DNA of 32,000 nt, from contig NC_010163.1 in the NCBI RefSeq assembly GCF_000018785.1, positions 450,001 through 482,000 on the forward strand, written 5' to 3'. Under the pieces are notes generated by a model. That model was not told where the DNA came from, made no database searches, and worked only from the letters and a program-made list of their open reading frames with translations. Below, piece after piece: positions 4,816 to 31,880 of the stretch. Within the stretch, counting starts at the first letter, position 1. Each line of letters opens with the position of its first letter. Source of the stretch: Acholeplasma laidlawii PG-8A (GTDB lineage: Bacteria > Bacillota_I > Bacilli_A > Acholeplasmatales > Acholeplasmataceae). The translations under genes and the position numbers were made by a program.

Positions 4816-7800
4816 ACTGATTAATTGGCATTTGTTTACAGACCAAACCATTAAAATAGATGGTAATACATTAATCTCTGGTGAAAACGGTGCTGGTAAA
4901 TCAACATTACTTGACGCCTTACAATATTTATTAGTCGGTGGAAAATCCGGTGCTAAATTTAATATTGCAGCAACTGATGATGCCAAACGTACCCTTGAGG
5001 GTTACGTTCGTGGTCGTATTGGTGCTGAAAATAAAGAATTTATCCGTTCAGGGGATGTTATCACTCATGTTGCATTAGAGTTTTATGATGAACAAAGTGA
5101 TGAATTTGGTATTATTGGTGCAGTCTTAGAGTTACCTAAAATGGGTAACTTAAAAGAAAGATTTTACTTACTAGAAAACTTAAATCTTCATGATGGTATT
5201 TTTATGGATAAAAATACGCCAAGAGATTACCGCTCCATGAAAGCATATTTAAAAACATTATCGATTGATTTTATACCGTTTGATTCACAACGTCAATACC
5301 GTGATGCACTTGCTAAATACTTTGGTATTGATGCTAAAAAATACTCAAAAATATTACCTAAAGCACTGGCTTTTAGACCGATTGATTTACAATCATTTGT
5401 TTTTGAATTCTTATTAGACGATGAACCCATTGATATTCAAAGTCTAAAAAATAATGTGACACAACTTAAACGAGTTGAAGGTCAAATTCGCTTAGACAAG
5501 GAAAAATTAGAAAAATTAGAAAAAATTATTACTTTGGGTGAGTCTCTTAATCAAAACCTAGATCAAATTACAACCAATGAGTTAATTGATCAAATGGCAT
5601 TTATTGAAAAAAGAGAAACCTTTTTAAATCATTCTGAAAATTTACTGGATAAAGTGAATGCTAAATATGAAGTACTAAAACGTCAAAAAGATGATTTAGA
5701 TAGACAAATAACATCGAATGATGAAACGATTTTAGAACTTGAGACATCACGTCAAAATGATGATATCACTCGTACCCTTTCAAACCTAAAAGAACAACTG
5801 CATGCTAAGGGAAACCAGTATAATGAACAAAAAGTGATTGTCAGTGATTTAAAAGCAACTCTAAATAGAGAACTTGATTTATATAGAGACTTTGTGAATT
5901 TAAATCCAAATACACATATCTCAGCATTCCTAAAATATTATTCTGGTCACGAGGAAAATTCAAATATTTTAGAATTAAGCAGTTACATTGAAGGTGCACA
6001 ATCTGCAGCAAGTGGTTATTTAAATGCTTTAAGTGTAGAAAAATCTGAACTTGAAAAAGAAAGAAATAATATCTTAAATGAATTAAGGATTGCTGAAAAC
6101 AGATTAAATGCACTAAAAAGAAATGTCAAAACATATCCTAGAAATGTCCAATCCTTAATGGATGCTATTAATACAGAACTATCAAATTATTATAAAAAAG
6201 ATGTACGTGTGCGTGCTTTTTCAGATCTAATTGAAGTTAAGGATGAAGCATGGCGTGATGCATTAGAGGGTTACCTAAATACAAGACGTTTTGACTTGAT
6301 TATTGATCCACTATACTTTAATGATGCACTTGAAGTCTATGACCGTGTTAAAAATGAATTATCTATTTACGGTGTAGGGTTAGTCAATACTGCTAAAATC
6401 GGTGAATATACAACATGCTTACCAAATTCACTTGCTGCTAAAGTAACAACAGATCATCCTTATGCTAGAAACTATGTCAACATGACCATGGGGTATGTTG
6501 TCACAGTTGATAATTTAAGTGATTTAAAAAATCATCAAAGATCAATTACTAAGTCTGCAATGACTTATGCTAACCACACAGCAAGACAAATCAATCCAAG
6601 TCAATATCAAGTACCTTACATTGGTAATTCATCGACACAACTTCAAGTAGAAATGGATACTAAGTTAGTAGGTGAACTGACAAGTGATCTTAAACGTGTA
6701 TCCAATTTACTTGAGAAAAACCAAATGTCACTCAGATTATTACAACAATCTAAATTAGGACATATTGTATCTTCTAATCAAATTAGATACTTTGATAATA
6801 TTAAACAAACAAGAAAAGAATACATTGAACTAGAACAAAAAGTAGCGAATTTATCAAGTAATCCTAAGATTGCTGAATTAGAGTCACAACTTGATGAAGA
6901 GCGTAACAAGAAACGTCAACTACGTCTAGATTTTGAAAAGTTAGCTGATCAAATGGCTGATTTACGTAGTGAAAAAACACGTATTCTTGAACAAATTGAA
7001 GAATCACGAGATGCATTATCCAATTATTTAAAGGAACAAAAAGAGTGGAATCAAAAATATCCAACACTTTTACCGATAGCTTATAACCAGTTTAACGCAT
7101 TAAAAGTGAGATATCAGTCAAATTATGACTTGATTTCTAGAGATTTAGCACAATCTACAATTCAAATTAAATCTCAAAATGCACGTGCAGAAGCTGATGT
7201 TGTAAACTTAATGCGTGCATATATTATAAACTATCACTTTGGTGCTGCACCAGATCTATCAGAGCTCATTGAATTTGAAAAAGAGTATGTCTTGATTAAA
7301 GACAATAATTTAATGAAGTATGAACAAGAAGCAATTGACTTAAGAAAAGCTTCTGAAACCGGATTTAGAGAAGAATTTGTAGGTAAACTAAGAGCATCAA
7401 TTGAATCCGCTCAAATTCAAATTGCAGAACTTAACCAGGCCTTAACTGGAAAGCACTTTGGTACAGATAGTTATGAGCTTGTTACAAAACCATCAGAGAA
7501 TCCAGAGTTTAGAACATACTATGATATCATTATGGACTCTGATGCGGTAGCTAAACATACCTTATTTACAGAAAACCTATCTAAACGTAAAGAAATTATA
7601 TTAATGGAGTTATTTAATAAGATTGCTTCATTTGATCCTGAAAATGATAAGTTTGCATTACAATTTTTAGATTACCGCTATTACATGAGTTATGATATTG
7701 AAGTCACAAACGAAAATGGTAACAAATCATACTTTAGTAAGGTAAGTAAAGAAAAATCTGGTGGTGAGACTCAGGTACCATTCTATATTGTTATTGCAGC

Positions 7801-8059
7801 AAGTTTCCAACAACTATTAAGTAAAAATAAACGTATTGATGCGGGTTGTATGGTATTATTTGACGAAGCATTTAACAACATGGATGAGTCTAGAATTGAT
7901 GCGATGATGAAGTTCTATAACTCATTAAGTATTCAATTATTTATCGCAGTGCCACCTCAAAGGGTAAGTAACATTGTAAACTATGTGACAACATCACTAG
8001 CGATAGTTAAAGATAACGATTTTGCAATTGTAGAGGCATTCAAAAGAGAGGTTATTTAA
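4793..8059 (+). CDS. jetC: JetC/MksB-like SMC-family ATPase
   Basis: SD AGGGGG upstream of ATG 4793. KLINWHLF...GENGAGKST Walker A (4880-4906), FNIAA..RTLEGYVRG, and long K/E/L/Q heptad-rich arms around a globular middle. C-terminal SGGETQ signature (7757-7774) and MVLFDEAF Walker B (7850-7873). 1088 aa. Confidence 0.8.
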   Translation: MKKLTKIKLINWHLFTDQTIKIDGNTLISGENGAGKSTLLDALQYLLVGGKSGAKFNIAATDDAKRTLEGYVRGRIGAENKEFIRSGDVITHVALEFYDEQSDEFGIIGAVLELPKMGNLKERFYLLENLNLHDGIFMDKNTPRDYRSMKAYLKTLSIDFIPFDSQRQYRDALAKYFGIDAKKYSKILPKALAFRPIDLQSFVFEFLLDDEPIDIQSLKNNVTQLKRVEGQIRLDKEKLEKLEKIITLGESLNQNLDQITTNELIDQMAFIEKRETFLNHSENLLDKVNAKYEVLKRQKDDLDRQITSNDETILELETSRQNDDITRTLSNLKEQLHAKGNQYNEQKVIVSDLKATLNRELDLYRDFVNLNPNTHISAFLKYYSGHEENSNILELSSYIEGAQSAASGYLNALSVEKSELEKERNNILNELRIAENRLNALKRNVKTYPRNVQSLMDAINTELSNYYKKDVRVRAFSDLIEVKDEAWRDALEGYLNTRRFDLIIDPLYFNDALEVYDRVKNELSIYGVGLVNTAKIGEYTTCLPNSLAAKVTTDHPYARNYVNMTMGYVVTVDNLSDLKNHQRSITKSAMTYANHTARQINPSQYQVPYIGNSSTQLQVEMDTKLVGELTSDLKRVSNLLEKNQMSLRLLQQSKLGHIVSSNQIRYFDNIKQTRKEYIELEQKVANLSSNPKIAELESQLDEERNKKRQLRLDFEKLADQMADLRSEKTRILEQIEESRDALSNYLKEQKEWNQKYPTLLPIAYNQFNALKVRYQSNYDLISRDLAQSTIQIKSQNARAEADVVNLMRAYIINYHFGAAPDLSELIEFEKEYVLIKDNNLMKYEQEAIDLRKASETGFREEFVGKLRASIESAQIQIAELNQALTGKHFGTDSYELVTKPSENPEFRTYYDIIMDSDAVAKHTLFTENLSKRKEIILMELFNKIASFDPENDKFALQFLDYRYYMSYDIEVTNENGNKSYFSKVSKEKSGGETQVPFYIVIAASFQQLLSKNKRIDAGCMVLFDEAFNNMDESRIDAMMKFYNSLSIQLFIAVPPQRVSNIVNYVTTSLAIVKDNDFAIVEAFKREVI

Positions 8060-8064
8060 CCCTA

Positions 8065-9777
8065 ATGACAAAACTTAAAGGTAATGGTGTATCCAGTGGT
8101 ATAGCAATTGCTAAGGTACATCAATTCAAACTAAATAACATGTTTGCAATGAATAAGTATGCAACCGACAAAGCATTTGAAATCAAGCGCTTAGGGGATG
8201 CACTTTATAAAGCAGATAAGGAACTTGAAAATCTAACCAAGCAAGCTGAAGAAAGAATTGGGGTTGAACATGCCCAAATCTTTAGTGCGCAACAAATGAT
8301 GATTAATGACCCTGAAATGATAAAAAATGCGCATGTTAAAATAAATGACTTTAATCTAGATGCTGCCTACGCATTTAAGCAAACTATGAGTGAAATGATA
8401 GATATGTTTGAGTTAAGTGATAATCCATACATTAAGGAACGTATCTCTGATTTAGAAGATATTTCAAATAGAGTATTACATATTTTAAGTGGAAAAACGC
8501 ATAGTCTTTATGTGTTTAATGAAGATGTGATACTTGTAGCAACAGACTTAGTCCCTTCAGAAACAATCAATTTAGACACAACTTTTATTAAAGGTATTGT
8601 CATTGAAAAAGGATCTAAAACAAGTCACTCAGCAATTCTTGCACGTAATTTAGGTATTCCTGCAATTACGGGTGTTGATGTAAGTAAAATACATCACGAC
8701 ACACTTGCAATCATTGATGGACACACAGGGGATATTTTATTAGAACCTAGTGAAGATACCATCAAAACATACCAAACTAAACAGCAAGAAGCACTTAAAT
8801 TACAATCAACGTATGAAACAATAAAAGACCTTAAAACAGCAACCATAGACAATCATGAAGTCCATTTAGCTGCAAACATTGGTGTTGATTTAGACATTCA
8901 AGAAGCACTAGATGCTAATGCTTCAGGTATTGGTTTATTACGTACAGAAAACCAGTATTTAGAATCTGATGATTTTCCAACCGAAGATGAACTATTTATC
9001 TTCTATGAAAAGGTAGCAACATCATTTGAAACTAATGAAGTCACTATTAGAACGCTTGATATTGGTGGCGATAAAAACTTAAGTTACCTCAATATGCGTA
9101 AAGAATTAAACCCATTTTTAGGTAATAGAGCAATCAGATATAGCCTAAGTTATCCATCATTATTTAAAACTCAGCTTCGTGCTATCTTACGTGCTAATAC
9201 ACATCAAAATATTAAAGTCATGTTTCCAATGATTTCAACTTTAAAAGAACTCATGGATGCGAAGAAGATACTAGATGAAACTTATCAAGCATTAAAGATT
9301 GAAGGACATGAAGTAAATTATCCAAAGATTGGTATGATGGTTGAAGTACCATCCGCTGCACTTGGTATAGAAAAGTTTTTACCACATATTGATTTCATCA
9401 GTATTGGAACCAATGACCTGATTCAATACATGTTTGCAGCAGATAGAATGAATGAACGTGTAGCATATCTTTATCAACCATATAATCCAATTCTTTTGTC
9501 CACCATCAAATCTATGATTGACAAGACTAATAAGCATGGTATAATAGTTAGCGTGTGCGGTGAAATGGCTGGCCATAAAGCTCAAAGTTTACTACTTATT
9601 GGCTTAGGTATCAAACATTTAAGCATGCATGCAAACTTAATTTTAGAAAACAAATACTTGATTTCTAAAACAACTTATAAGGCACTAGAAGAAATTGCCG
9701 AAAAAGCATTATTACTAGATCACCCTTACGAAGTTGAAGCACTTATAAATACATATATTAAAGGACTTAAATATTAA
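8065..9777 (+). CDS. ptsI: Phosphoenolpyruvate-protein phosphotransferase (PTS Enzyme I)
   Basis: GSKTSHSAILARNLGIPAITG (phospho-His), RTLDIGGDK, NPFLGNRAIR, MFPMI, MMVEVPSAA, SIGTNDLIQY, VCGEMAG (catalytic Cys). 570 aa. Confidence 0.95.
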   Translation: MTKLKGNGVSSGIAIAKVHQFKLNNMFAMNKYATDKAFEIKRLGDALYKADKELENLTKQAEERIGVEHAQIFSAQQMMINDPEMIKNAHVKINDFNLDAAYAFKQTMSEMIDMFELSDNPYIKERISDLEDISNRVLHILSGKTHSLYVFNEDVILVATDLVPSETINLDTTFIKGIVIEKGSKTSHSAILARNLGIPAITGVDVSKIHHDTLAIIDGHTGDILLEPSEDTIKTYQTKQQEALKLQSTYETIKDLKTATIDNHEVHLAANIGVDLDIQEALDANASGIGLLRTENQYLESDDFPTEDELFIFYEKVATSFETNEVTIRTLDIGGDKNLSYLNMRKELNPFLGNRAIRYSLSYPSLFKTQLRAILRANTHQNIKVMFPMISTLKELMDAKKILDETYQALKIEGHEVNYPKIGMMVEVPSAALGIEKFLPHIDFISIGTNDLIQYMFAADRMNERVAYLYQPYNPILLSTIKSMIDKTNKHGIIVSVCGEMAGHKAQSLLLIGLGIKHLSMHANLILENKYLISKTTYKALEEIAEKALLLDHPYEVEALINTYIKGLKY

Positions 9778-10189: not shown

Positions 10190-11110
10190 ATGGAATACAA
10201 AAACATATCTTATTTTGCTACTAAATGGAATATTAAAGAAAGAAGAATTAGAGTACTTTGCACAGAAGGTAGAATACATGGTGTGAAAAAAGTTGGTAAA
10301 ACTTGGTTAATCCCAGAAGATGCTCAAAAGCCTATTGATAAAAGATATCGACAAGTTAATGACTTGTTCTTTGATTCAATAGATTTTAGTATTATTGATG
10401 AAAAAAAGGATACAATTGATTCCCATCGACCATTCTCTCAAAACATGACTAGACAATTAAGAGATAAATTAATTATTGAATGGACTTATAATTCTAATGC
10501 AATTGAAGGTAATACACTTACTTTATCAGAAACAAAAGTAGTCTTAGAAAACGGCATAACAATTAAAGGAAAACCATTAAAAGATCATTTAGAGATAATT
10601 AATCATAAAGAAGCAATTGAATACATTGAAGACCTAGTCAGTAAAAACGTTAAACTTTCAGAATATGATATTAAAGCTGTTCATTATTTAATTTTGAAAG
10701 AGATTGATTCTACTAATGCTGGTAAATATAGACAAGAAAATGTGTTTATCAGTGGTGCTAAGCATGTGCCATCAGTATACTTAAATGTTCCATATGAAAT
10801 GCAGAAAATGATTGAAAAATATCAAAGTTGGAAAGATTTACACCCTGTAGTAAGGGCTTGTTACTTACATGGAGAGTTCGTAAAAATACACCCATTTATC
10901 GATGGGAATGGTAGAACAGCAAGACTTTTATTAAATTTTGAACTCATTCAAAGTGGCTATCCACCCGTCGTAATCAAAACAGAGAATAGAGCGGATTATT
11001 ATGATACACTAGATAAAGCGCATACAACAAATAATTATACAGATTTTATTAAAATTATTGTTGACTTGGTTAATGAGTCAGAGAATTTATACTTATATTT
11101 GATAGGTTAA
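10190..11110 (+). CDS. Fic/DOC family protein with an N-terminal HTH (class II, intramolecular inhibitory helix)
   Basis: Fic motif HPFIDGNGRTAR (10889-10924). Inhibitory motif S-N-A-I-E-G (10493-10510), matching [S/T]xxxE[G/N]. The N-terminal about 45 aa (ISYFATKWNIKERRIRVLCTEGRIHGVKKVGKTWLIPEDA) resemble an excisionase/MerR-type HTH. Confidence 0.9.
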   Translation: MEYKNISYFATKWNIKERRIRVLCTEGRIHGVKKVGKTWLIPEDAQKPIDKRYRQVNDLFFDSIDFSIIDEKKDTIDSHRPFSQNMTRQLRDKLIIEWTYNSNAIEGNTLTLSETKVVLENGITIKGKPLKDHLEIINHKEAIEYIEDLVSKNVKLSEYDIKAVHYLILKEIDSTNAGKYRQENVFISGAKHVPSVYLNVPYEMQKMIEKYQSWKDLHPVVRACYLHGEFVKIHPFIDGNGRTARLLLNFELIQSGYPPVVIKTENRADYYDTLDKAHTTNNYTDFIKIIVDLVNESENLYLYLIG

Positions 11111-11129
11111 TAAGGAAGGGGGTTATACA

Positions 11130-11552
11130 ATGACTGGTGATATTTTAAAACTATTGTCAGAGTTAAATTGGAATAATAAAGAAAAACAAACTATAGCGAT
11201 TAAGGTATTATCAAGTAGGAAAGATTATAATTTTAAAATGCTAATTGCACCATTACAAAATGAATTTTATGAGAATCAAGGAATTTGGTGGAAAGATATT
11301 GCTTTAGGTTGTGCTATTGTACTAAGTAATAAGTCCGATAGTGAAATAATTAACTTATTACCCGATCTTCTAGTTTGGTTACAAGATTTGAATTGGCCGG
11401 GTGCAGTCGAAGTTTTCGAAAGGCTAAAGAAAATCCCATATTTATTAATAAAAAAATATTTGAATGATACGATTTATAAAGCACAAATAGAAAATGATGA
11501 TCAGTGGATTGAATGGTTAACCCTGCTTAATAAAAGTCTTCTGACTCTATAG
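11130..11552 (+). CDS. Small cytoplasmic helical protein, DUF5071-like (from memory)
   Basis: Strong SD AAGGAAGGGGG. 140 aa. The motif LVWLQDLNWPGA resembles what I recall for DUF5071. No catalytic motifs. Confidence 0.4.
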   Translation: MTGDILKLLSELNWNNKEKQTIAIKVLSSRKDYNFKMLIAPLQNEFYENQGIWWKDIALGCAIVLSNKSDSEIINLLPDLLVWLQDLNWPGAVEVFERLKKIPYLLIKKYLNDTIYKAQIENDDQWIEWLTLLNKSLLTL

Positions 11553-18192: not shown

Positions 18193-19269
18193 ATGTTCAT
18201 TAAATCTATGATTAAGGGTCTATTTTTTAATATGAACCCTTTATTTGAACGTAATAAGCATGACATTATACGTTACAATAAACAACTAATACCTATCGCA
18301 TTTATTTTTTCATTGGTTACTATTTTAATCCCAATGTTTTTTTCACTATTTAGACCATCCATGCTAGAAACCTTACCGGCTTATCTAGTTATATTTAGTG
18401 TTTTTATACTTTTACTTATCCTATTTAACTTTAAACCATTTCATGAAAAACCTTTAGTGTTTGCTTATACATTTGGTATTGTTTTCTTTATATTTGTAGT
18501 ATACCTAAGTATAGATAGATTTCAATCTAGACCAGCTGGTACTGCACTCATATTCTTTGTTGTTGCACCTATAATATTTGTAGATAAACCATATAAGATA
18601 AACATCTATTTAGTGTTAATGTTTATTATTCATACGATATTATCTTTTCAATATAAGACGTTTGATATAGCCTCAGTTGATTTATTAAACACATTTATCA
18701 GTCTTGTAGCTGGCATGTTATTTGGTAGAATCTTCTTAGTCACTAGATTGAAAAATTTTGATATACACAGAGCACTTTTAATAGAAAGAGAAACAGACTT
18801 TTTAACAGGTCTACCAAACCGCCGATCACTATTTGAATATGCTCAAAAAGATACATTTAAGGCATATAATTATATGGGTCTTATGATGTTTGATATAGAC
18901 CGTTTTAAAAAGTATAACGATAACTATGGTCACTTAAATGGCGATCAAGTACTTACAGAATTTGCACGACTATTAGAAGTGTTTTCTAAAACATACCCAG
19001 TAAAATTTTACCGATATGGTGGTGAGGAGTTTATTGGAATCACGTACAACCTAGATAAATTAGAAATCATCAACCTAGCAAATCATATTAAAATGGATAC
19101 CTTTAAATTGAAAGTACCGTTTGAACAAATCACTACAAGTATTGGTGTTACTGTTACAGATAAAACTGATAATATAGATATAAATGATTTGATAGAACAA
19201 GCAGATAAAGCATTATACTCTGGTAAAAACAGTGGTAGAAATAAAGTGATTTTTTACGAGAAAAAATAA
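18193..19269 (+). CDS. Membrane-bound diguanylate cyclase (GGDEF domain)
   Basis: About 6 N-terminal TM helices, then DFLTGLPNRR, FDIDRFKKYNDNYGH, YRYGGEEF and ADKALYSGKNSGRN. There is no RxxD I-site directly upstream of GGEEF. Confidence 0.9.
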   Translation: MFIKSMIKGLFFNMNPLFERNKHDIIRYNKQLIPIAFIFSLVTILIPMFFSLFRPSMLETLPAYLVIFSVFILLLILFNFKPFHEKPLVFAYTFGIVFFIFVVYLSIDRFQSRPAGTALIFFVVAPIIFVDKPYKINIYLVLMFIIHTILSFQYKTFDIASVDLLNTFISLVAGMLFGRIFLVTRLKNFDIHRALLIERETDFLTGLPNRRSLFEYAQKDTFKAYNYMGLMMFDIDRFKKYNDNYGHLNGDQVLTEFARLLEVFSKTYPVKFYRYGGEEFIGITYNLDKLEIINLANHIKMDTFKLKVPFEQITTSIGVTVTDKTDNIDINDLIEQADKALYSGKNSGRNKVIFYEKK

Positions 19270-23810: not shown

Positions 23811-24977
23811 ATGAATGTAGAAAATCTTTTTAGTATCATGATAGTTGTTTTCGCTGCAATTATAGCTTTATCACTAGCTGTAACACACCGTTATGTGAAA
23901 ACAATTTATCGGGGCATAAATTTTTTAGCCATGGGTGTAGTGGGGCATATTATCGGATTTATAATTTATATTGGTCTTTATATACAGACTGATTGGATCA
24001 AATACTTTATTGGAAATGGTATCTTTTTATCAGGTACTTTTTTGCTGCATAAAGGTTTAAACCAGTTTATGGAACGAGAAGTGAGTTACAAAAGAGCATA
24101 TAGTATCTTAAGCATTGGCGTTATTCTTGGTATCTTATTTTTCTTTTTTGAACCTAATTTAGTGTATCGTCAAAACTTAATCTCGTTTTTAATTATTTAC
24201 CTTGTGGTAGAGATATTAAATAGTGTCATTAAATCTACCGATAAAATAAAAGCTACCCTAAAGTTTCCAATCTATGTATTTTGTACACTATTTCTACTAC
24301 TTATGATGGCACGCTTTATCGCAGTGAATAATCATATAATATTAGAATTGATTCCAGGCCAAGACTTTACTTATAATTTTTTATCAAATATTATTGGTGG
24401 TATCTTATTTGTAGTATTAGGTTTTATGATTTCTGTAATTATTAATATTAGAGCAATAACCGATTTGAAAATAGAACGTGCCCTAATGGAAAAAATCTCA
24501 GTAACAGATCACTTAACTGGTTTACCAAACCGTTTAGCTTTAGAAAAGTATGTATCTAAAATAGAACATAATGGTCAACCTTATGCAGTCATCATTGCAG
24601 ACATTGATGAATTTAAGAAAATAAATGATACCTATGGTCATATGATTGGTGATAAAGTAATTGTAGAATTTTCTAAAGCGTTACTTAATTTAAATGATGA
24701 TCGTATGTTTACAGCAAGATATGGCGGTGATGAATTTGTCACAATTGTTAAACGCTTTGAATCAGTAGACACATTAAAGAGTAATATTGCTAAGACAATT
24801 AGTACGATAGGCACACAAATTAAAGTCAATGAGCATCATTTTAATTTAACCCTCTCAGTTGGTGTTGCAATCTATCCTCATCATGGTACTGAAATTTATG
24901 AACTTATTCATAAAGCAGATGCAGCTTTAGGGGATATTAAAACAAGTGGTAAAAACAGTATAAGGTTTTATGTATAA
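23811..24977 (+). CDS. Membrane-bound diguanylate cyclase (GGDEF domain)
   Basis: About 6 TM helices, then DHLTGLPNRL, ADIDEFKKINDTYGH, ARYGGDEF and ADAALGDIKTSGKN. Confidence 0.9.
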   Translation: MNVENLFSIMIVVFAAIIALSLAVTHRYVKTIYRGINFLAMGVVGHIIGFIIYIGLYIQTDWIKYFIGNGIFLSGTFLLHKGLNQFMEREVSYKRAYSILSIGVILGILFFFFEPNLVYRQNLISFLIIYLVVEILNSVIKSTDKIKATLKFPIYVFCTLFLLLMMARFIAVNNHIILELIPGQDFTYNFLSNIIGGILFVVLGFMISVIINIRAITDLKIERALMEKISVTDHLTGLPNRLALEKYVSKIEHNGQPYAVIIADIDEFKKINDTYGHMIGDKVIVEFSKALLNLNDDRMFTARYGGDEFVTIVKRFESVDTLKSNIAKTISTIGTQIKVNEHHFNLTLSVGVAIYPHHGTEIYELIHKADAALGDIKTSGKNSIRFYV

Positions 24978-25017: not shown

Positions 25018-26892
25018 TTATTTTTTAGCTAACATGCGTAAACCATTTAAGATAACTAATATGGTAGAACCTTCATGGGCTACAACGCCAAATGGAAGAT
25101 TGACTAATCCAAAGATATTAAATGAAAGTAATGTAAGTATAACAAGCAATGAGAATATCATATTTTGATAGATGATAGATTGATTAGCTTTTGAGATTCT
25201 AAAGATCTTATCAATGTTTTCAATTTTATTATTCATGAAGATGATATCCGCAGTTTCAAGTGACACATCAGATCCACTTCCCATAGAGGCACCAATGTCT
25301 GCAATGGCTAGTGCTGGTGCATCATTTACACCGTCTCCAACCATCATGACTTTACCATATTGTTTTTGAAGTTCGATAATGTGTGCACTCTTTTCATGTG
25401 GTAATGCATCTGAAATAATAACATCAATACCCGCTTTTTGCGCAATCGCGTGAGCTGTTGCATTGTTATCACCTGTAAGAAGAATAGGTATGATGTTTTC
25501 TTTTTTAAGTTTCATGACCATTTCTTTAACGTTTGGTCTTAATTTATCAATGAGTGAAATATAACCAATTAAATGATCATTCAAGATAATTTGAACAATA
25601 GAGTTACCGTTGGATTGGCTTTCTACCATTTTTGGAGTCACTACATCAGATTTATTATGTTCAAACTTTCCAATTTTATATTCATCTTTACCTAATTTAA
25701 GTGACATACCTTTTCCAGGTATTTCTGTTACTGGATTTGGTTTATAGGTTGTTGAATCTTCTAAAAAAGTAGTAATTGCACTTGCTAGCGCATGATTAGA
25801 TAGTTTTTCTACTGAGTAGACAATATCAAGAATATCTTGTTTATTATAATTAGGATCGACAAATACATCAACAACTGCAGGTTTACCTTCTGTGATTGTA
25901 CCAGTCTTATCAAATACCACAACTTTGATGCGACTTAAGTCTTCTAAGTATTTACCACCTTTAATTAATACTCTACCTCTTGCAGCATTAGATAAAGTAG
26001 ATAACATTGTAGGTGCAACACTTGCCATAAGTGCACATGGAGAACCAACAACTAACACAACCGTACCACGGTAGAATGCTTGATCCCAAGTCCATGTGTT
26101 AGTTAGTGGTGGAATCAGCATGAAACCTATCGCAAGAAGTATTACAAAATACACATACCATTTTTCGATTTTTTCAATACGTGTTTGTGTATGACCTTGA
26201 TTATCTTGTGCATCGCGAACAAGTTTAATAATTTTATTGACAACGAACTCTTCTGGTCGTGTTGTAATCTTAACTAAAATCGCTGAGTTTAGATTATATG
26301 TACCTGCAAATACCTCTTCATTTTCACCTTTATTTACTGGCATAGATTCACCAGTAATTGCAGCTTGGTTAATTGCGGTTGAACCTTTAAAGATAAGACC
26401 ATCAACTGGAATTGCATCCCCAACCTTTACAATAACAATGTCTCCAAGTTTAAGATCATTAATTGCTACAACCGTCTCTACACCATCTTGGTAAAGGGTT
26501 GCTCTTTCAGGCGAAAGATTTAATAAAGAAGTTAATTCTTTTTGTGATTTATTATGTGCAAATGTTTCCATTAAACCAGAAATTGCAAATATCATAATAA
26601 GTAATGCGGCTTCAAGTGGATTACCAATGATAAATGCTGACACAGCTGCAATAATCATCAAGATTTCTACGTTTAATGCCTTGTTAGCAATAGTTTCTTC
26701 AACACCTTCTTTAGCTTTGAAGAATCCACCTAATACAAAGGACAATGCGTATAACACGACAAGTGGTGTTGGAACAATGTCACCAGTATTTGGCATCACT
26801 GTAAAGTTTAATATGACGGCTACTACTAAGAGTAGAACCGATGTGACAACGAACATAAGTTCGATATTTAATCTAGTAAATATTTTTTTCAT
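25018..26892 (-). CDS. P1B-4-type heavy-metal P-type ATPase (SPC motif; Co/Zn/Fe(II)-exporter class, PfeT/CtpD-like)
   Basis: TGES, SPC in the TM helix (VVGSPCALM), DKTGTIT, GDGVNDAPAL, HEGST in the last TM. There is no N-terminal HMA domain. Start placed at ATG 26892 (MKKIFTRL...), preceded by GAGG. Confidence 0.88.
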   Translation of the reverse strand: MKKIFTRLNIELMFVVTSVLLLVVAVILNFTVMPNTGDIVPTPLVVLYALSFVLGGFFKAKEGVEETIANKALNVEILMIIAAVSAFIIGNPLEAALLIMIFAISGLMETFAHNKSQKELTSLLNLSPERATLYQDGVETVVAINDLKLGDIVIVKVGDAIPVDGLIFKGSTAINQAAITGESMPVNKGENEEVFAGTYNLNSAILVKITTRPEEFVVNKIIKLVRDAQDNQGHTQTRIEKIEKWYVYFVILLAIGFMLIPPLTNTWTWDQAFYRGTVVLVVGSPCALMASVAPTMLSTLSNAARGRVLIKGGKYLEDLSRIKVVVFDKTGTITEGKPAVVDVFVDPNYNKQDILDIVYSVEKLSNHALASAITTFLEDSTTYKPNPVTEIPGKGMSLKLGKDEYKIGKFEHNKSDVVTPKMVESQSNGNSIVQIILNDHLIGYISLIDKLRPNVKEMVMKLKKENIIPILLTGDNNATAHAIAQKAGIDVIISDALPHEKSAHIIELQKQYGKVMMVGDGVNDAPALAIADIGASMGSGSDVSLETADIIFMNNKIENIDKIFRISKANQSIIYQNMIFSLLVILTLLSFNIFGLVNLPFGVVAHEGSTILVILNGLRMLAKK

Positions 26893-26914
26893 ATAGACCT
26901 CGTTTCTTAGTAAT

Positions 26915-26943
26915 AATCTACCACCAATATTATAAATAGTCAA
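26915..26943 (-). promoter_or_regulatory. Candidate promoter of the ATPase gene
   Basis: On the minus strand: TTGACT (26943-26938), 17-nt spacer, TAGATT (26920-26915). Confidence 0.5.
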
Positions 26944-26969
26944 CTTATTTATAAAAATAATTACCTTAT

Positions 26970-26984
26970 TTATAATAATTATAA
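26970..26984. promoter_or_regulatory. Perfect PerR/Fur-family 7-1-7 box TTATAATAATTATAA
   Basis: Exact match to the B. subtilis Per-box consensus TTATAATnATTATAA, located upstream of the P1B-4 ATPase. Confidence 0.55.
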
Positions 26985-27000
26985 TGAGCAAGTGTTCTAT

Positions 27001-27126: not shown

Positions 27127-27201
27127 GCACAATTAGCTCAGCGGGAGAGCACCTGCTTGACGTGCAGGGGGTCACAAGTTCAATCCTTGTATTGTGCACC
27201 A
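27127..27201 (+). tRNA. tRNA-Val (anticodon GAC), CCA encoded
   Basis: Acceptor GCACAAT/ATTGTGC, D-arm TAGCTCAGCGGGAGAGCA, anticodon stem CCTGC/GCAGG with loop TTGACGT, T-arm ACAAG-TTCAATC-CTTGT, A discriminator plus CCA. 75 nt. Confidence 0.93.
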
Positions 27202-27215
27202 TGTTAACATTGATT

Positions 27216-27246
27216 AGAGATTCTTCTGCGAGAGTCTCTTTTTTTA
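27216..27246 (+). terminator. Rho-independent terminator after tRNA-Val
   Basis: agagattct / agagtctct stem (one G-U pair) followed by T7. Confidence 0.7.
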
Positions 27247-27340
27247 ATCCTAAAACATTAATTAACAAAAAACTATATAAAAGATATATAATAAAGGTGA
27301 TTTATCGGTTACCTAATTTATATTAAGGGGAGGACTTCAT

Positions 27341-27481
27341 ATGGAAGGTTTTGATGTAAGTCTAGTTCCAACTATTTTCTTGGCATTTCAAGGCATTGTG
27401 ATTGGACTATTTGTTTTGGTACACATATTTCTAGGTAGAAAAAGAGGTGTTGTTAAAACGTTCCTGGTTTTTTATTGGTGA
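27341..27481 (+). CDS. 5' fragment (first TM helix, CvpA-like N-terminus) of the giant downstream gene, separated by a frameshift
   Basis: Strong SD AAGGGGAGGA (27325-27334) precedes ATG 27341. The 46 aa MEGFDVSLVPTIFLAFQGIVIGLFVLVHIFLGRKRGVVKTFLVFYW overlap the 5' end of the 27447 ORF and run into it if the T6 run at 27468-27473 is read as T5. Confidence 0.6.
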   Translation: MEGFDVSLVPTIFLAFQGIVIGLFVLVHIFLGRKRGVVKTFLVFYW

Positions 27482-30400
27482 AATTATTTTAGTATTTGTT
27501 TTACTTTGGGGATTAGGATTATTCCAAACAAACGATTGGGTAACAGAAGCAATGGTACGTCAGTACATCTCCTTGATACCTTTTGGTAATGAACAACTTG
27601 TTGAATACATGGATGAGATTGTAGCTAGTGGTATGTTACCTCTTGTTTTAGCAATTGTCGATTTAAGTATTAAAATGAGTATCTTCATTGTCTTTTATAC
27701 AATCCTAAGAGCTATATTTAAGTGGATCTTGTTTGGTATACCTTGGTTAATATTTATTAAACCGATTGTTAAGGATAAAGAAAAGAATAAATTTTTAGGC
27801 GGTATCGTAGGTATTTTTAGAGGTGCCTTTGCTGGATTTTTCTTAATCTTTCCTGTCTTAATCATCATTAATACAGTAGTTGGTGAGGGTGTTGAGTTAG
27901 ATAATCCCGAATACAATGATATTGCCCAAGCAGTATCACAAGCAAATCAATATAACTTTGTTAAATATATTAATGATGCGACTAAAGTTAATGATGTTGG
28001 TCTAGCAGATTTCATGTTTGACCTAGCCTTTAAATCTAAAGTCAATGATGACGAAATGATTGTTTGGCGTGTCGAATTAAAATGGATTGCTGAAGCAGGT
28101 AAAGTAGCACTACCTTATATATTAGATGAAAATTCGGAAATGGAAATCACTTTAGCTGAAATCACTAAATTCGAAGGTGCTTTTACCGCGTTTTCTAATT
28201 CTCAACTCTTAAACTCAAGTGTCAAACCAATGATGAAATTTGCTATCCTTGTTGCATCAGAACAAGAAGGATTTGATTTCTTATCAGAAACAGAAATTGC
28301 TGATTTGATTACACAAATCGATGGTGTAGATATTGATTTATCAAACGATGTCAATGAAGTATATCTTGCAGCTAAAGAATTATTAACCATACAAGATTAT
28401 GCACAATGGCAAGCATCGCTTGAAAATATCGGTTTAATCGCAAACTTTGATAGCGATGATCAAGACTTATTTATAAGTGCATTAAATAGATTAGTTACCC
28501 TTGATTTACTTAAACTAGCAGATCCTGTTTTATCTGTAGGTATGTATGATCAATCTATCGTTGATCAAATTACTTGGTTAGAAACCAATGAAGAAAAAGT
28601 AGAACTACTGAATAGCGTTCGTGCAAAATTAAATGCTTATGAAGGTGAATTTGTCTCAACAACTTTAAACGAACTTGTTGGATTATTTGAGACAACATTC
28701 TACAGTTTCCCAGGTATTGATCTTGATGGTGATGGTACAACGGATGTTGAACTATCTGAATTAATAGAAAACATGGAAGACTTAAGTATTATATTGAATA
28801 AAGATCCACAATATCATACTTGGTTTAAAGAAGTATTAGATGGTGTTGGTTCATTATCTGTGATTGACGTATTTATGGAACCACTCATGGGTATTGCTTA
28901 CAGTCAAATAGCTGGTCAAGATGAAATGTTTGATGAAACAGAATTAGCATTATTAAAAGATATTATAGAAACTAACTTTAGCGATAGTGATGACTTAGCA
29001 AGAGAACTAACTTGGATTGCTGATGTTTATTATGCAATTGGTAGTTTAGAAGTAGGCGAATTATTAAAAGCTGGTGAAACACCAATTGTCATTATGGACA
29101 CATTACTTGTTGATAATGATGGTCAACTGCTATTTAAAGAAATGGTAGATACCTTCTTAGAAGGTCAAACAATTAGTGCTTTAACAAATCAAATGAGTAG
29201 TGCACTTATTAGAAAATATGTCACTGAACCAGTGACATTAGCTGAACCACTCAACCGTGCAGCAGCAATTTCTTCATTTAATTTTAATACTGAAATTAAT
29301 GTACTACTAGATGTCTTATTCGGTCTATATGATGAAGGTATGACACTTGAAGCAGCAATGAGTACAGAAGAAGACTCTAATATGCTAGAAACATTATTAC
29401 CTTCCATCATTACTTATATTAGAGATGAAGCACAAAAAACTAAGTTATTATCATCTAACATCCTATATTCATTCTTAGATTATAACTTATCAAGTATCCC
29501 AATGCTTGAAATGCCTGAAGTGATTTATGAAACAGAAGGTATGTATGAAGGTTGGATTAAAAAGACAGAATTATCTAACCTGTTATCTGTTATCGATGGT
29601 TTATTAACTGAAATGGAATCTCATGATATGGGCATCCAAGATCTCTTGGGTGGTATGGAATCTATGAATGATTTCTTCCCTGTGATTAAAGGCTATGCAA
29701 GTAGTGAAGAAAATAGAGATACACTCTTATCATCTGATATCATTTATAAGACAATAGATGACTTGATTCAAGGTATTGATTTAATTACAATCCCAGAAAA
29801 TGCAGTTGTTACTGATGTCAACTCACCATATTTTGAATGGACAGATCGTATTGAACTTAAAAAGATATTAGAAGCAATTGTAATTATGAATGTCGATGTA
29901 CCTCAAGAAGGCGAGCAAATGAACTTAGATGCTATTACAGGTGAACAGATTAATGATGTAATCCTTGTAGAATCTAAAGTCATGACAAGACTACTTACAA
30001 CCTATATTAAAGATGCAAATATATTTGATATCCCTGAAGTAGCTTATGAAACAAATGAAGCACTAGACCTTAAACAAACAGAACTTGAAGCGTTAGGTAA
30101 TTTATTGGTTGATTTAAACCTTACATTAGGGGACTTAATTGGTGGTGGCGCTGGTAACTTACTAGATAGTTATTATGTAAGTGACCTAACAAGCTTAGAT
30201 TATAGTCAATCCTATCTAATTAAAGGATTTATTACCCACGGTATTAAAACCGGTATTGGCACACCGCATACACTTGCACTTGATACAACATACCCAGAAG
30301 TTTTAAGTAATACTGAAATCGGTGAATTATTCAACATCTTAAATGCATTAGATACTATACCATCCATGACTGTACAAGGATTAATGGATACACTGGATCC

Positions 30401-31880
30401 AACCGTTTTAACCTATGAACAAACATCTGATATCATTAATAGTGGAGACTCTATCGTTATTAGATCTTTATTTAGTGATAATTTATTAGGTACTCAAATC
30501 ATTAGTGACCTAACACTTCAAGATGTAGCATATCATGATAATAATGGTACCTATGTATATGATTTAATTAGTTACAATGAAATGAAAAAATTAGTCGATG
30601 CACTTGCTAACTTATTTGAACCAACAGATGTTGTTGTTGACTCTGTTACAAACCTAGATACAGATACATTAACCATTCATAATATGATGCTCATGCATCA
30701 AGAAACATCTAGTATCATCCGCACATTAATGAGTGATTCTATTATTGGGTTTGCAACACCTCAAAGAATCTCTGATGATGCTTATGATCTAATGGCACCA
30801 GGTGATTTAACTTACGTAGAATTAACTAATTTCTTAAATGCGATCGCTGTATTAGATTCTACATATAATGATGGTGACTTAAATAATGACTTACCAGTAA
30901 CAGATTTAGTGGATACATTAGCAGGTACTGTAGGTCAACTTAAACTTGGACAAATGCAAAGTATGCATCAAGAAGGCTCACTGATTATGCAAAAATTCAT
31001 GTCAGAAGGTATTATCACAGCTGTACAAAGACCAAATGTTAGAGATGATGCATTTAGTGACCTAACAATGGAAATGGTTGATCACAGTGAAATTACGAAG
31101 TTACTCCTATCACTTAATGATATTGCATTATCTATGCATGCAAATGATCAAAACTTAGCTGATGATGAAACAATTACCAATGTAGTATCTAACATCTCAA
31201 CAAACCTAGAAACAGCACTGATTCGTACAATAGCTACAAGAGAATCTATTATTGTTTATAGAAAAGTAACAAATGCAATCAATTCAAGCCTACCAGTTGC
31301 AATACCTACACTAGCACTACAAAACCATGCATATACAGGTGATGATATTACATCGACTGAACTTGTTAACTTGACTTACGCGCTTGAAGACTTTGGCTTT
31401 ACAAATATTGATACATCGCTAGTTGACTCCGGGGCATCTGATTTATTAAATGTAAAAGATGCATTAACTAGAAACTCTTATATTATAGATAGAATGATTT
31501 CAGATGCTGTAACTACTGCAGGTTTAGATACTGTAGAATCTCATACTGGTATGGAAGATCCACTAATTGATATTCAAAAAGATGAACTTACAAATTTAGT
31601 AGACGCGTTTATTGCATTTGGTATTAGTGATATCAATAATGCTACAAGTACAAGCATGGCTACATTATATGCAAGTGCTCAAGCAATGAATGAAACCGAA
31701 TTTAACGCTTATATCGATTTTGTTGAACCGTATGATCCATTAACAGAAGATCTCGGATTAACTATCGTTAAAGACTTCTTGATTGCTAAACTAGATAACC
31801 AAATTCCAGATCCGTTTAACTTCCCAAATAATATCTCAGTTACAAACCGTCAAGAACTACATGATTTAATTTACCCATAA
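27447..31880 (+). CDS. Giant acidic protein: CvpA-like 4-TM N-terminal anchor plus a roughly 1300-aa helical repeat-rich extracytoplasmic region
   Basis: 1477-aa ORF. N-terminal TM helices with GIFRGAFAGFFLIFPVLII, as in CvpA (colicin V production) family proteins. The remainder is D/E/T/L-rich with recurring [ST]E[LI]xxL..A[LI] and S.I[IL] motifs. The GTG at 27447 has no usable SD spacing, so the real start is probably 27341. Confidence 0.75.
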   Translation: MLLKRSWFFIGEIILVFVLLWGLGLFQTNDWVTEAMVRQYISLIPFGNEQLVEYMDEIVASGMLPLVLAIVDLSIKMSIFIVFYTILRAIFKWILFGIPWLIFIKPIVKDKEKNKFLGGIVGIFRGAFAGFFLIFPVLIIINTVVGEGVELDNPEYNDIAQAVSQANQYNFVKYINDATKVNDVGLADFMFDLAFKSKVNDDEMIVWRVELKWIAEAGKVALPYILDENSEMEITLAEITKFEGAFTAFSNSQLLNSSVKPMMKFAILVASEQEGFDFLSETEIADLITQIDGVDIDLSNDVNEVYLAAKELLTIQDYAQWQASLENIGLIANFDSDDQDLFISALNRLVTLDLLKLADPVLSVGMYDQSIVDQITWLETNEEKVELLNSVRAKLNAYEGEFVSTTLNELVGLFETTFYSFPGIDLDGDGTTDVELSELIENMEDLSIILNKDPQYHTWFKEVLDGVGSLSVIDVFMEPLMGIAYSQIAGQDEMFDETELALLKDIIETNFSDSDDLARELTWIADVYYAIGSLEVGELLKAGETPIVIMDTLLVDNDGQLLFKEMVDTFLEGQTISALTNQMSSALIRKYVTEPVTLAEPLNRAAAISSFNFNTEINVLLDVLFGLYDEGMTLEAAMSTEEDSNMLETLLPSIITYIRDEAQKTKLLSSNILYSFLDYNLSSIPMLEMPEVIYETEGMYEGWIKKTELSNLLSVIDGLLTEMESHDMGIQDLLGGMESMNDFFPVIKGYASSEENRDTLLSSDIIYKTIDDLIQGIDLITIPENAVVTDVNSPYFEWTDRIELKKILEAIVIMNVDVPQEGEQMNLDAITGEQINDVILVESKVMTRLLTTYIKDANIFDIPEVAYETNEALDLKQTELEALGNLLVDLNLTLGDLIGGGAGNLLDSYYVSDLTSLDYSQSYLIKGFITHGIKTGIGTPHTLALDTTYPEVLSNTEIGELFNILNALDTIPSMTVQGLMDTLDPTVLTYEQTSDIINSGDSIVIRSLFSDNLLGTQIISDLTLQDVAYHDNNGTYVYDLISYNEMKKLVDALANLFEPTDVVVDSVTNLDTDTLTIHNMMLMHQETSSIIRTLMSDSIIGFATPQRISDDAYDLMAPGDLTYVELTNFLNAIAVLDSTYNDGDLNNDLPVTDLVDTLAGTVGQLKLGQMQSMHQEGSLIMQKFMSEGIITAVQRPNVRDDAFSDLTMEMVDHSEITKLLLSLNDIALSMHANDQNLADDETITNVVSNISTNLETALIRTIATRESIIVYRKVTNAINSSLPVAIPTLALQNHAYTGDDITSTELVNLTYALEDFGFTNIDTSLVDSGASDLLNVKDALTRNSYIIDRMISDAVTTAGLDTVESHTGMEDPLIDIQKDELTNLVDAFIAFGISDINNATSTSMATLYASAQAMNETEFNAYIDFVEPYDPLTEDLGLTIVKDFLIAKLDNQIPDPFNFPNNISVTNRQELHDLIYP
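29394..31644 (+). repeat. About 9 degenerate tandem protein modules (77-92 aa each) within the giant ORF
   Basis: Motif A sits at aa 668, 760, 843, 920, 1000, 1087, 1176, 1265 and 1343 (LLSSNILYSFLD, LLSSDIIYKTID, VMTRLLTTYIKD, SYLIKGFITHGI, SIVIRSLFSDNL, SIIRTLMSDSII, SLIMQKFMSEGI, SIIVYRKVTNAI, SYIIDRMISDAV). Motif B alternates at aa 706, 802, 878, 956, 1044, 1124, 1214, 1303 and 1380 (TELSNLLSVIDGL, IELKKILEAIVIM, TELEALGNLLVDL, TEIGELFNILNAL, NEMKKLVDALANL, VELTNFLNAIAVL, SEITKLLLSLNDI, TELVNLTYALEDF, DELTNLVDAFIAF). Confidence 0.7.

What the first reader, a model, noticed from the sequence alone, without database searches (positions are those of the whole stretch)
27341..31880. Giant acidic CvpA-anchored protein built from about 9 degenerate 77-92 aa helical modules
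The N-terminus has 4 TM helices and a GIFRGAFAGFF segment that resemble the CvpA (colicin V production) membrane family. CvpA proteins are normally only about 160-180 aa.

Here the anchor is fused to about 1300 aa of D/E/T/L-rich sequence. From about aa 650 to 1400 (nt 29394-31644) two motifs alternate with a period of 77-92 aa. One is an S.I[IL]...[LF] motif and the other a [ST]E[LI]xxLxxA[LI] motif. Weaker copies of the second motif occur earlier, at aa 283, 435, 498 and 616.

I do not recognise this repeat as any named domain (not Ig-like, LPXTG, RHS or YD). It could be a cell-surface scaffold or adhesin of a wall-less or thin-walled organism, or a new repeat family.
Basis: partly seen in the sequence, partly recalled or inferred. 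Interest (0 to 1): 0.7.

Follow-up and report, generated by a model that had tools for sequence, protein, structure and literature searches.

The report
Giant membrane-anchored repeat protein of Acholeplasma
This gene of the wall-less bacterium Acholeplasma laidlawii encodes a very large, acidic, cysteine-free helical protein with a four-helix CvpA-like membrane anchor and nine copies of a roughly 83-residue module that matches no catalogued domain or solved structure, and it belongs to an unstudied family of several hundred such giant proteins found in wall-less relatives.

Summary
The observation largely holds.

- **ORF:** 27447-31880 (+) encodes 1477 aa. An iterative profile finds exactly nine modules of 76-88 aa at aa 659-1413, each with E 1e-15 to 1e-24. 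No shuffled decoy passes.
- **Start and earlier copies:** The window carries a net +1 insertion near 27460-27463 that splits off the first transmembrane helix. Orthologues are intact at 1512 aa. The "weaker earlier copies" are not significant.
- **Anchor:** The window protein does not hit Pfam Colicin_V (PF02674), and no close orthologue's N-terminus does either. Among N-termini of more distant relatives, 20 of 32 match it at E<=1, most of them weakly. One just reaches the gathering score, and the R-x2-G-x3-G-x3-G motif is shared. I read the anchor as a divergent CvpA-like domain.
- **Topology:** Charge distribution in 41 of 42 sequences places the acidic, cysteine-free 1330-aa part outside the cell.
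- **Module novelty:** Pfam, NCBIfam, PDB sequences and Foldseek against PDB and BFVD give no match, using a two-module model with pLDDT 92.6.
- **Family:** The module profile finds 322 protein clusters, up to 4566 aa and 34 matched stretches. Named members come from Acholeplasma, Izemoplasmatales and other Mycoplasmatota.

The most likely role is an elongated surface scaffold, coat or adhesin. That function is inferred, not shown.

The parts
27216..27239 (+). Terminator-like hairpin with T-run after tRNA-Val (27127-27201). It implies the giant gene has its own promoter in 27250-27330.
27341..27484 (+). Original 5' end of the gene: ATG with ribosome-binding site AAGGGGAGG (27325-27333). It encodes the N-tail, TM1 and the GRKRG loop. 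In this window it is out of frame with the rest and ends at TGA 27482-27484.
27460..27463 (+). Frameshift site: window ACGTTCC versus AC-CACC in strain 8195, a net +1 nt plus two substitutions.
   Evidence: orthologues P0001-P0010 read ...GRKRGVVKTTWFFIGE... without interruption
27447..31880 (+). Main ORF as it stands in the window: 1477 aa from GTG, stop codon included.
27465..27875 (+). Rest of the CvpA-like membrane domain: TM2 (27465-27524), acidic outer loop, TM3 (27633-27707) followed by a further hydrophobic stretch, lysine-rich inner loop, and TM4 with K-x2-G-x3-G-x3-G / FRG motif (27798-27875).
27876..29420 (+). Non-repetitive acidic region (aa 144-658), not significantly module-like. 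The part that was modelled (aa 278-658) is helical at lower confidence (pLDDT about 45-82); aa 144-277 was not modelled.
28719..28745 (+). DLDGDGTTD loop (DxDxDG type). The four Asp are invariant in all 11 sequences. Candidate Ca2+ site (inferred).
29421..29663 (+). Module 1 (aa 659-739)
29697..29948 (+). Module 2 (aa 751-834)
29937..30185 (+). Module 3 (aa 831-913)
30174..30401 (+). Module 4 (aa 910-985)
30411..30662 (+). Module 5 (aa 989-1072). Extra modules of longer orthologues are inserted after this one.
30672..30926 (+). Module 6 (aa 1076-1160), the seed of the profile. Modelled together with module 7 at pLDDT 92.6.
30942..31202 (+). Module 7 (aa 1166-1252)
31209..31472 (+). Module 8 (aa 1255-1342)
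31440..31685 (+). Module 9 (aa 1332-1413)
31686..31877 (+). Conserved 64-aa C-terminal cap containing the family-wide motif EDxG[LM]TIVKD (31746-31775).

Best explanation
This is the Acholeplasma laidlawii copy of a conserved integral membrane protein of about 1512 aa.

**Anatomy**
- The first ~180 residues form a divergent CvpA-like four-helix membrane domain. It is oriented N-terminus out and C-terminus out.
- The remaining ~1330 residues therefore lie on the outside of this wall-less cell (inferred from charge distribution).
- That outer part is cysteine-free, strongly acidic and almost entirely alpha-helical.
- It has a ~515-residue non-repetitive region with one invariant DxDxDG-type loop, then nine ~83-residue modules, then a conserved 64-residue cap.
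- Each module is predicted as about four helices plus a one-residue beta bridge.

**Evolution of the array**
- Every module is conserved position by position across species.
- Longer relatives add modules in the middle of the array.

**Likely function (inferred)**
- I think it forms an elongated helical rod or solenoid projecting from the membrane.
- It would act as a structural surface element whose length is set by module number. Candidate roles are a polyanionic, cation-binding coat or spacer, or an adhesin.

**State in this window**
- A +1 frameshift after codon 40 separates TM1 from the rest.
- Either this is a sequence error or a very recent lesion, or the protein is made from an internal start as a three-helix-anchored form with the same orientation.
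For: **Shown**
- ORF and composition.
- Nine modules with no decoy hits.
- Positional orthology of modules: scores of 131-269 at the corresponding position against at most 108 at any other position, with insertions after module 5.
- All-alpha models, pLDDT 75 for the 1200-aa model and 92.6 for two modules.
- Intact 1510-1998-aa orthologues in A. laidlawii 8195, A. granularum, A. oculi, A. equifetale and metagenome-assembled genomes.
- Family of 322 clusters. Of 102 representatives of at least 1200 aa, 90 have three or more N-terminal hydrophobic segments and 46 match the same N-terminal profile.
- Link to Pfam Colicin_V through relatives and the shared R-x2-G-x3-G-x3-G motif.

**Supporting the outside location (inference)**
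- Loops 1 and 3 carry on average 3.1 and 7.7 K+R. The N-tail and loop 2 carry 0.3 and 1.4 K+R, and loop 2 has 5.0 D+E. The bias holds in 41 of 42 sequences.
- CvpA is predicted to be a 4-pass protein with a periplasmic C-terminal segment of variable length (bioRxiv 10.1101/2020.09.25.314492).
- MarP has four N-terminal transmembrane helices followed by a periplasmic protease domain (PMC4992679).
- Ten of the eleven close homologues have no cysteine.
Against: - No experiment or dedicated topology predictor was available. The topology rests on the positive-inside rule.
- TM3 is followed by a further hydrophobic stretch. Together they span 42 residues. If this formed two helices the orientation would flip, although the lysine-rich loop 3 argues against that.
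- Pfam Colicin_V does not hit the window protein or its close orthologues. Direct hhalign to E. coli CvpA is weak: probability 34-36%, E about 4e-4, TM4 only.
- The only structural neighbours, all insignificant, are HEAT/ARM solenoids, which are typically cytoplasmic scaffolds.
- There is no conserved operon partner to hint at function.
- Pfam does not support calcium binding: no EF-hand hit among 73 modules.
- The gene is frameshifted in this window.
Confidence: 0.6

Rival explanations
1. The giant acidic helical region is cytoplasmic. It would be a membrane-tethered internal scaffold or cytoskeleton-like element of a wall-less cell, not a surface protein.
For: - The only fold neighbours, though insignificant, are HEAT/ARM-type solenoids that usually work inside cells.
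- There is no cleavable signal peptide.
- TM3 and the hydrophobic stretch after it together span 42 residues and could in principle be a hairpin that flips the orientation (regions).
Against: - The positive-inside bias holds in 41 of 42 sequences, with very basic loops 1 and 3.
- CvpA is predicted to have its C-terminus in the periplasm. MarP has a comparable layout of four N-terminal helices followed by a periplasmic domain.
- The protein is cysteine-free and its tail is strongly acidic.
Confidence: 0.15
2. The CvpA-like domain is the working part, for example an envelope-stress or transport-related membrane module. The giant outer domain would then be its sensor or regulator, for instance sensing divalent cations, surface contact or membrane tension, rather than a passive scaffold.
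For: - The anchor is far better conserved than a mere anchor needs to be: 53 invariant positions across the ten close orthologues, including GxKRG, AIxDL and GGxxGxxRGAF.
- CvpA's variable C-terminus has been proposed to bind or sense periplasmic partners.
- The pre-repeat region has an invariant DxDxDG loop.
Against: - CvpA's own biochemical function is unknown, so nothing can be transferred from it.
- Variation in module number from 9 to 15 among close orthologues, and up to 34 matched stretches in the wider family, fits a length-setting structural role better than a sensor.
- There is no partner signalling gene in conserved synteny.
Confidence: 0.2
3. In this strain the gene is a pseudogene. 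The frameshift removes the start codon, the ribosome-binding site and TM1, so no functional product is made.
For: - The change is a net +1 with two adjacent substitutions, not a simple homopolymer slip.
- The first in-frame start (GTG 27447) has AGAGG immediately adjacent, which is poor spacing for a ribosome-binding site.
Against: - The remaining 4.4 kb frame is fully open and 98% identical to an intact orthologue. Any inactivation is therefore very recent, or the difference is a sequencing or assembly error.
- A product starting at 27447 would keep TM2-TM4 and the same orientation.
Confidence: 0.2
4. The apparent repeats are a by-product of biased composition (D/E/T/L-rich helical sequence) and not true internal duplication.
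For:
- Pairwise identity between modules is about 20%.
- There is no DNA-level repeat.
Against: - The seed module finds its neighbour at E 7.5e-6 in a single pass.
- The profile converges with no hit in 33 composition-matched decoys.
- The same profile finds 193 proteins at E<=1e-10 among 1.84 billion.
- AlphaFold gives the same four-helix unit for each module.
Confidence: 0.02

Closest known systems
CvpA / Colicin V production protein family (Pfam PF02674; E. coli CvpA, 162 aa)
   Same: - Four N-terminal transmembrane helices.
- A basic RG loop after TM1.
- TM4 motif (R/K)-x2-G-x3-G-x3-G followed by RG.
- Predicted C-terminus outside and of variable length.
- Relatives of the window protein hit PF02674, and one reaches the gathering score.
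   Different: - The window protein and its close orthologues fall below any Pfam signal.
- The aspartate before the glycine motif (TDR in E. coli) is replaced.
- The C-terminal extension is about 1330 aa instead of about 40 aa.
MarP (Rv3671c) of Mycobacterium tuberculosis: four N-terminal transmembrane helices plus a periplasmic serine protease
   Same: The same design principle: a four-helix N-terminal anchor carrying a large extracytoplasmic C-terminal domain (PMC4992679). That MarP's anchor is itself classed as Colicin_V is my recollection of InterPro and was not tested here.
   Different: The passenger is a roughly 200-aa trypsin-like protease with a disulfide. Here it is a cysteine-free, non-enzymatic-looking repeat array of about 1330 aa.
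Variable membrane proteins VmpA/Vmp1 of phytoplasmas (same order, Acholeplasmatales), surface adhesins with tandem repeats
   Same: Surface proteins of wall-less relatives, built from a stretch of repeated sequences whose number varies, and membrane-anchored (PMC4392738). That the repeat unit is about 80 aa is my recollection.
   Different: - Vmps have an N-terminal signal peptide and a single C-terminal transmembrane anchor.
- They are much shorter.
- Their repeats are near-identical, recently duplicated copies, whereas here the modules are ancient and each is conserved at its own position.
- Sequence relatedness could not be tested because no Vmp sequence was available in the tools.
HEAT/ARM-type alpha-solenoid repeat proteins
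   Same: An all-helical repeat architecture. These are the only structures Foldseek returns.
   Different: - The matches are not significant: E>=5e-3 and TM<=0.14 for the 1200-aa model, E>=2 and TM<=0.25 for two modules.
- The unit is about 83 aa with four helices and a beta bridge, not a 40-aa helix pair.

Membership tests
CvpA family (Pfam PF02674 Colicin_V) | Significant match to the PF02674 profile (gathering score 29.3 bits) | tested here: not met
   The window protein has no hit at E<=1, with or without the repaired N-terminus. The N-termini of ten close orthologues have no hit at E<=10.
CvpA family (Pfam PF02674 Colicin_V) | Homology to proteins that do match PF02674 (transitive link) | tested here: met
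   - The N-terminal profile A2 against 32 distant relatives A5 gives hhalign E 5.5e-36 over 177 columns.
- 20 of 32 relatives match PF02674 at E<=1. The best is 29.6 bits, E 8e-7; another gives 24.4 bits over model positions 2-125 of 144.
- The best-scoring relative, P0164, matches the window family's N-terminal HMM at E 1e-7.
CvpA family (Pfam PF02674 Colicin_V) | [quoted passage not shown] | tested here: inconclusive
   - In the intact orthologue, hydrophobic segments lie at about aa 8-31, 42-61, 98-139 and 153-178.
- Segment 98-139 is long enough to be more than one helix.
- No dedicated topology predictor was available.
- In the window itself TM1 is out of frame.
CvpA family (Pfam PF02674 Colicin_V) | Conserved glycine motif in TM4 (three near-invariant glycines, GxxxG type) preceded by a basic residue | tested here: met
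   - The window has K-FL-G-GIV-G-IFR-G.
- The relatives have R147, G150, G154 and G158 nearly invariant.
- This aligns to E. coli R98, G101, G105 and G109 in hhalign.
- The conserved glycines are described in bioRxiv 10.1101/2020.09.25.314492.
CvpA family (Pfam PF02674 Colicin_V) | Near-invariant aspartate reported for CvpA homologues | tested here: inconclusive
   - The paper does not give the position in the text I read.
- The E. coli 'TDR' aspartate before the glycine motif has no counterpart in the window family (KNKFLGG).
- An invariant Asp (AIxDL, D107) does exist in TM3.
CvpA family (Pfam PF02674 Colicin_V) | C-terminus on the outer (periplasmic) side | not testable with these tools
   Only the positive-inside count (41 of 42 sequences) and predictions in the literature are available. 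No experiment was possible.
EF-hand / DxDxDG calcium-binding motifs | Match to EF-hand profiles; acidic ligands at loop positions 1, 3, 5, 9 and 12 | tested here: not met
   - No EF-hand Pfam hit in the protein or in 73 modules.
- PDB sequence hits to NCS-1/frequenin are only E 0.17-0.32.
- One loop (aa 425-433, DLDGDGTTD) has invariant Asp at positions 1, 3, 5 and 9 but Leu at position 12. It fits the looser DxDxDG class only.
Named repeat families (HEAT/ARM, TPR/Sel1, FIVAR, Ig-like, RHS/YD, LPXTG proteins) | Profile or structure match of the module | tested here: not met
   - Pfam and NCBIfam: nothing.
- PDB sequence profile: best E 0.0015, to a designed protein.
- Foldseek PDB: best E 2.0 for the two-module model.
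- Foldseek BFVD: best E 1.5.

The most novel reading that the evidence does not exclude
Wall-less Bacilli (Acholeplasmatales, Izemoplasmatales and relatives) share a lineage-specific class of giant, cysteine-free, polyanionic helical-repeat proteins. These are planted in the membrane by a CvpA-like domain. Together they would form an external protein coat whose thickness is set by module number (from 9 modules among close orthologues to 34 matched stretches in the wider family). Such a coat would do part of the job that the wall and its anionic polymers do in walled Firmicutes: cation buffering, spacing and protection. The fusion would also give the first handle on what the enigmatic CvpA membrane module does, namely hold or sense an extracytoplasmic partner.
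Probability: 0.2. Interest if true: 0.75.

Novelty: new variant of a known kind. Interest (0 to 1): 0.5.

Why it matters
- **A gap in Mollicutes biology.** Acholeplasma and its relatives have no cell wall, and little is known about what organises their surface. This family is large and conserved, and its members are among the largest proteins these small genomes encode. I found no Pfam model for the module and no publication on the family.
- **Practical outcomes.** The work defines a new ~83-residue helical module that could become a domain family. It also yields a strong candidate for a major surface structure or adhesin of a common cell-culture contaminant.
- **Bearing on CvpA.** CvpA is widespread and needed for gut colonisation by enteric pathogens, yet its biochemical role is unknown. 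The fusion shows the CvpA-type four-helix domain serving as a carrier for very different extracytoplasmic domains.

Tried and rejected
- **Self-BLASTP.** Comparing the protein with itself returned only the identity hit, so I switched to profile iteration.
Too strict to be useful.
- **Alignment A1.** It contained a tail for P0006 that I had typed in wrongly. I discarded it and rebuilt it as A2 from the true sequence.
- **Direct tests for CvpA.** Pfam on the window protein and on close orthologues found nothing. A word-indexed profile search with A2 found only fragments of the same family.
- **Third large protein search.** I spent it on E. coli CvpA. It returned only relatives of at least 79% identity, too shallow for a good profile. 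hhalign against that set stayed weak.
- **EF-hand origin of the modules.** Considered because of G-D-[IL]-[ST]-x-x-E-L and weak NCS-1 hits. Rejected as unsupported.
- **Pre-repeat region as degenerate modules.** Rejected.
- **Conserved operon partner.** None found. Only loose synteny with a P-type ATPase upstream and the acc genes downstream.
- **Literature.** Searches for Acholeplasma with CvpA or colicin V found nothing relevant.
Full report
**What is at the coordinates.**
- The window has about 31% G+C. Over the 1200 residues compared (ORF aa 278-1477), it is 97% identical to the chromosome of Acholeplasma laidlawii strain 8195. This is a wall-less member of the Mollicutes that uses the standard genetic code.
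- The only long ORF in the reported region runs from GTG 27447 to the stop at 31878-31880, giving 1477 aa.
It is in a different frame and runs into TGA at 27482-27484.
- Ten homologues from the 5.8-billion-protein collection are 1510-1998 aa long. They begin MEGFDVSLVP...GRKRGVVKTTWFFIGE, so the ATG-frame peptide and the main ORF are joined in them.
- A DNA alignment with strain 8195 shows the window reads AAAACGTTCCTGG where the intact gene reads AAAAC-CACCTGG. This is one extra base plus two substitutions.
- The gene as given is therefore frameshifted after about codon 40. The rest of the frame is open for 4.4 kb and 98% identical to an intact orthologue. I consider a sequence error or a very recent lesion more likely than an old pseudogene.

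**The repeat is real.**
- A single module (aa 1076-1160) used as a phmmer query finds the next module at E 7.5e-6.
- I iterated with an inclusion threshold of 1e-3 against the 11 family members plus 33 shuffled decoys. This converges on an 83-position profile.
- The profile marks exactly nine modules in the window protein, at aa 659-1413 (nt 29421-31685). They are 76-88 aa long, with E 1e-15 to 1e-24. No decoy was ever included.
- The consensus is TLEELNEILLEESIIIRRLISEAIIDITLFTIPDDAYEEDAPEGDISKTELTNLLDALVALDLTLEDGAEDTDLTDLVDNLDA.
- Seven orthologues have nine modules, two have eleven and one has fifteen.
- Each window module scores 131-269 against the module at the corresponding position in other species. 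It scores at most 108 against any other position. The extra modules sit between modules 5 and 6.
- The array is therefore old and each position is individually conserved. In line with this, there is no repeat at DNA level.

**Structure.**
- AlphaFold2 on aa 278-1477 with the 11-sequence alignment gives pLDDT 75, rising to 80-90 in the module region. The model is almost purely helical.
- Modules 6-7 alone give pLDDT 92.6 and pTM 0.87.
- Each module is a short helix, a 15-residue helix carrying S-x-I-I, a turn with a one-residue beta bridge, the T-E-L helix, an Asp/Asn-rich loop and a final helix.
- Foldseek against the PDB finds nothing at E<=1e-3. For the long model there are only generic HEAT/ARM solenoids with TM-score at most 0.14. 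For the two-module model the best E is 2.0. BFVD is equally empty.
- Pfam, NCBIfam and a profile search of PDB sequences find no family for the module, either in the window protein or in distant relatives.

**The family is much larger than the first search suggested.**
- The module profile was scored exhaustively against 1.84 billion cluster representatives. It finds 322 proteins at E<=1e-3, 193 at E<=1e-10 and 68 at E<=1e-30. Lengths reach 4566 aa, with up to 34 matched stretches.
- Among the 102 listed representatives of at least 1200 aa, 90 have three or more hydrophobic segments in the first 260 residues. Forty-six match an HMM built only from the N-termini of the close orthologues. The listed representatives are uniformly acidic, with mean D+E 16% and K+R 6%.
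- Where the source names an organism, it is one of these: Acholeplasma, Alteracholeplasma palmae, Acholeplasmataceae, Candidatus Izemoplasmatales, Mycoplasmatota/Tenericutes, 'Bacilli bacterium', or in one case a 2-Mb 'Clostridium sp.' metagenome-assembled genome.
- Nearly all are annotated 'hypothetical protein'.

**Is the anchor CvpA?**
- Directly, no. PF02674 does not hit the window protein, even with the frameshift repaired. It does not hit the N-termini of ten close orthologues at E<=10. hhalign to E. coli CvpA is weak.
- Indirectly, yes, though most individual matches are weak.
  - The N-terminal profile aligns over 177 columns with that of 32 distant family members at E 5.5e-36.
  - Twenty of those 32 match PF02674 at E<=1, colinearly in those inspected. 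One just reaches the gathering score (29.6 against 29.3 bits, E 8e-7). Another scores 24.4 bits across model positions 2-125 of 144.
  - The piece that aligns to E. coli CvpA is the TM4 signature R-x2-G-x3-G-x3-G followed by RG. These are the conserved glycines described for CvpA.
  - RefSeq already calls the A. palmae member a 'CvpA family protein'.
- I therefore treat the anchor as a divergent CvpA-like domain. I have listed in the membership table which defining features were and were not met.

**Topology and likely role.**
- Across 42 N-terminal domains, the loops after TM1 and TM3 carry on average 3.1 and 7.7 Lys+Arg and almost no acidic residues. The N-tail and the TM2-TM3 loop carry 0.3 and 1.4 Lys+Arg, and the TM2-TM3 loop has 5.0 Asp+Glu. 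The bias holds in 41 of 42 sequences.
- By the positive-inside rule, both termini are outside.
- This agrees with the predicted periplasmic, variable-length C-terminus of CvpA (bioRxiv 10.1101/2020.09.25.314492). It also agrees with MarP, where four N-terminal helices carry a periplasmic protease (PMC4992679).
- The complete absence of cysteine in ten of eleven homologues and the strong negative charge are also what one expects of an exported protein in this lineage. This last point is inference from general knowledge.
- The gene stands alone between a terminator-like hairpin after tRNA-Val and its own stop.
- Its neighbours are a P-type ATPase upstream and, beyond the window, a small no-Pfam ORF and the acc genes. 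They are partly syntenic in a 38%-identical orthologue, but not in another locus, and suggest no partner.
- My best reading is an elongated, polyanionic helical rod on the cell surface whose length is tuned by module number. It would serve as coat, spacer, cation sink or adhesin.
- The anatomy is shown. The location is inferred. The function is a hypothesis.

**Comparison and novelty.**
- The design 'CvpA-type anchor plus a large outer domain' is known in principle (MarP). Repeat-bearing surface proteins are known in the sister group (phytoplasma Vmps).
- The module itself, the ~515-residue pre-repeat region and the conserved C-terminal cap have no described counterpart in the resources I could query. 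I found no literature on the family.
- I classify it as a new variant of a known kind: a CvpA-family membrane protein with a novel giant repeat ectodomain. It defines a sizeable uncharacterised family specific to wall-less Bacilli.
- I score interest as moderate (0.5). The family is real, well delimited and unstudied, but its function is still open and nothing here overturns current understanding.

Noticed in passing
window 2807-8059: JetA (2807-4180), JetB/DUF4194 (4177-4815) and JetC (4793-8059) of a Wadjet/MksBEF-like system. No JetD ORF follows; the next gene is PtsI (8065-9777). This is either a three-gene condensin-like set or a Wadjet that has lost its nuclease.
   Followed up: no
window 27460-27463: A net +1 frameshift with two neighbouring substitutions at the 5' end of the giant gene, relative to strain 8195 and all orthologues. 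It is not a homopolymer slip, so it may be a real strain difference.
   Followed up: partly
window 28719-28745: A DLDGDGTTD loop with four Asp invariant in all 11 sequences (DxDxDG type). It is a possible single calcium site in the pre-repeat region. Pfam does not recognise it as an EF-hand.
   Followed up: partly
window 25018-26991 (-) and loci L004/L005: A P-type ATPase with an SPC motif and no N-terminal metal-binding domain is the divergent upstream neighbour of the giant gene. This holds both here and in a 38%-identical orthologue locus, but not in locus L002.
   Followed up: partly
L006 9714-13501 (beyond the window's 3' end): Downstream of the gene in A. laidlawii 8195 lie a 221-aa ORF with no Pfam match and then accB, accC and accD. 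The same order occurs in the distant orthologue locus L004.
   Followed up: partly
window 18193-19269 and 23811-24977: Two GGDEF diguanylate-cyclase proteins within 6 kb. A GGDEF-EAL protein sits next to the orthologue in locus L002. This points to c-di-GMP signalling in a mollicute.
   Followed up: no
window 10190-11552: A Fic/DOC-domain protein (10190-11110) is followed directly by a DUF5071 protein (11130-11552). They may be a toxin-partner pair.
   Followed up: no
window 27127-27239: tRNA-Val(GAC) is followed by a 10-bp hairpin and a T-run, directly upstream of the giant gene's promoter region.
   Followed up: yes
P0008, P0009, P0010 (orthologues): Extra modules (six, two and two respectively) are all inserted at the same place, between the counterparts of window modules 5 and 6. 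This suggests a preferred expansion point in the array.
   Followed up: partly
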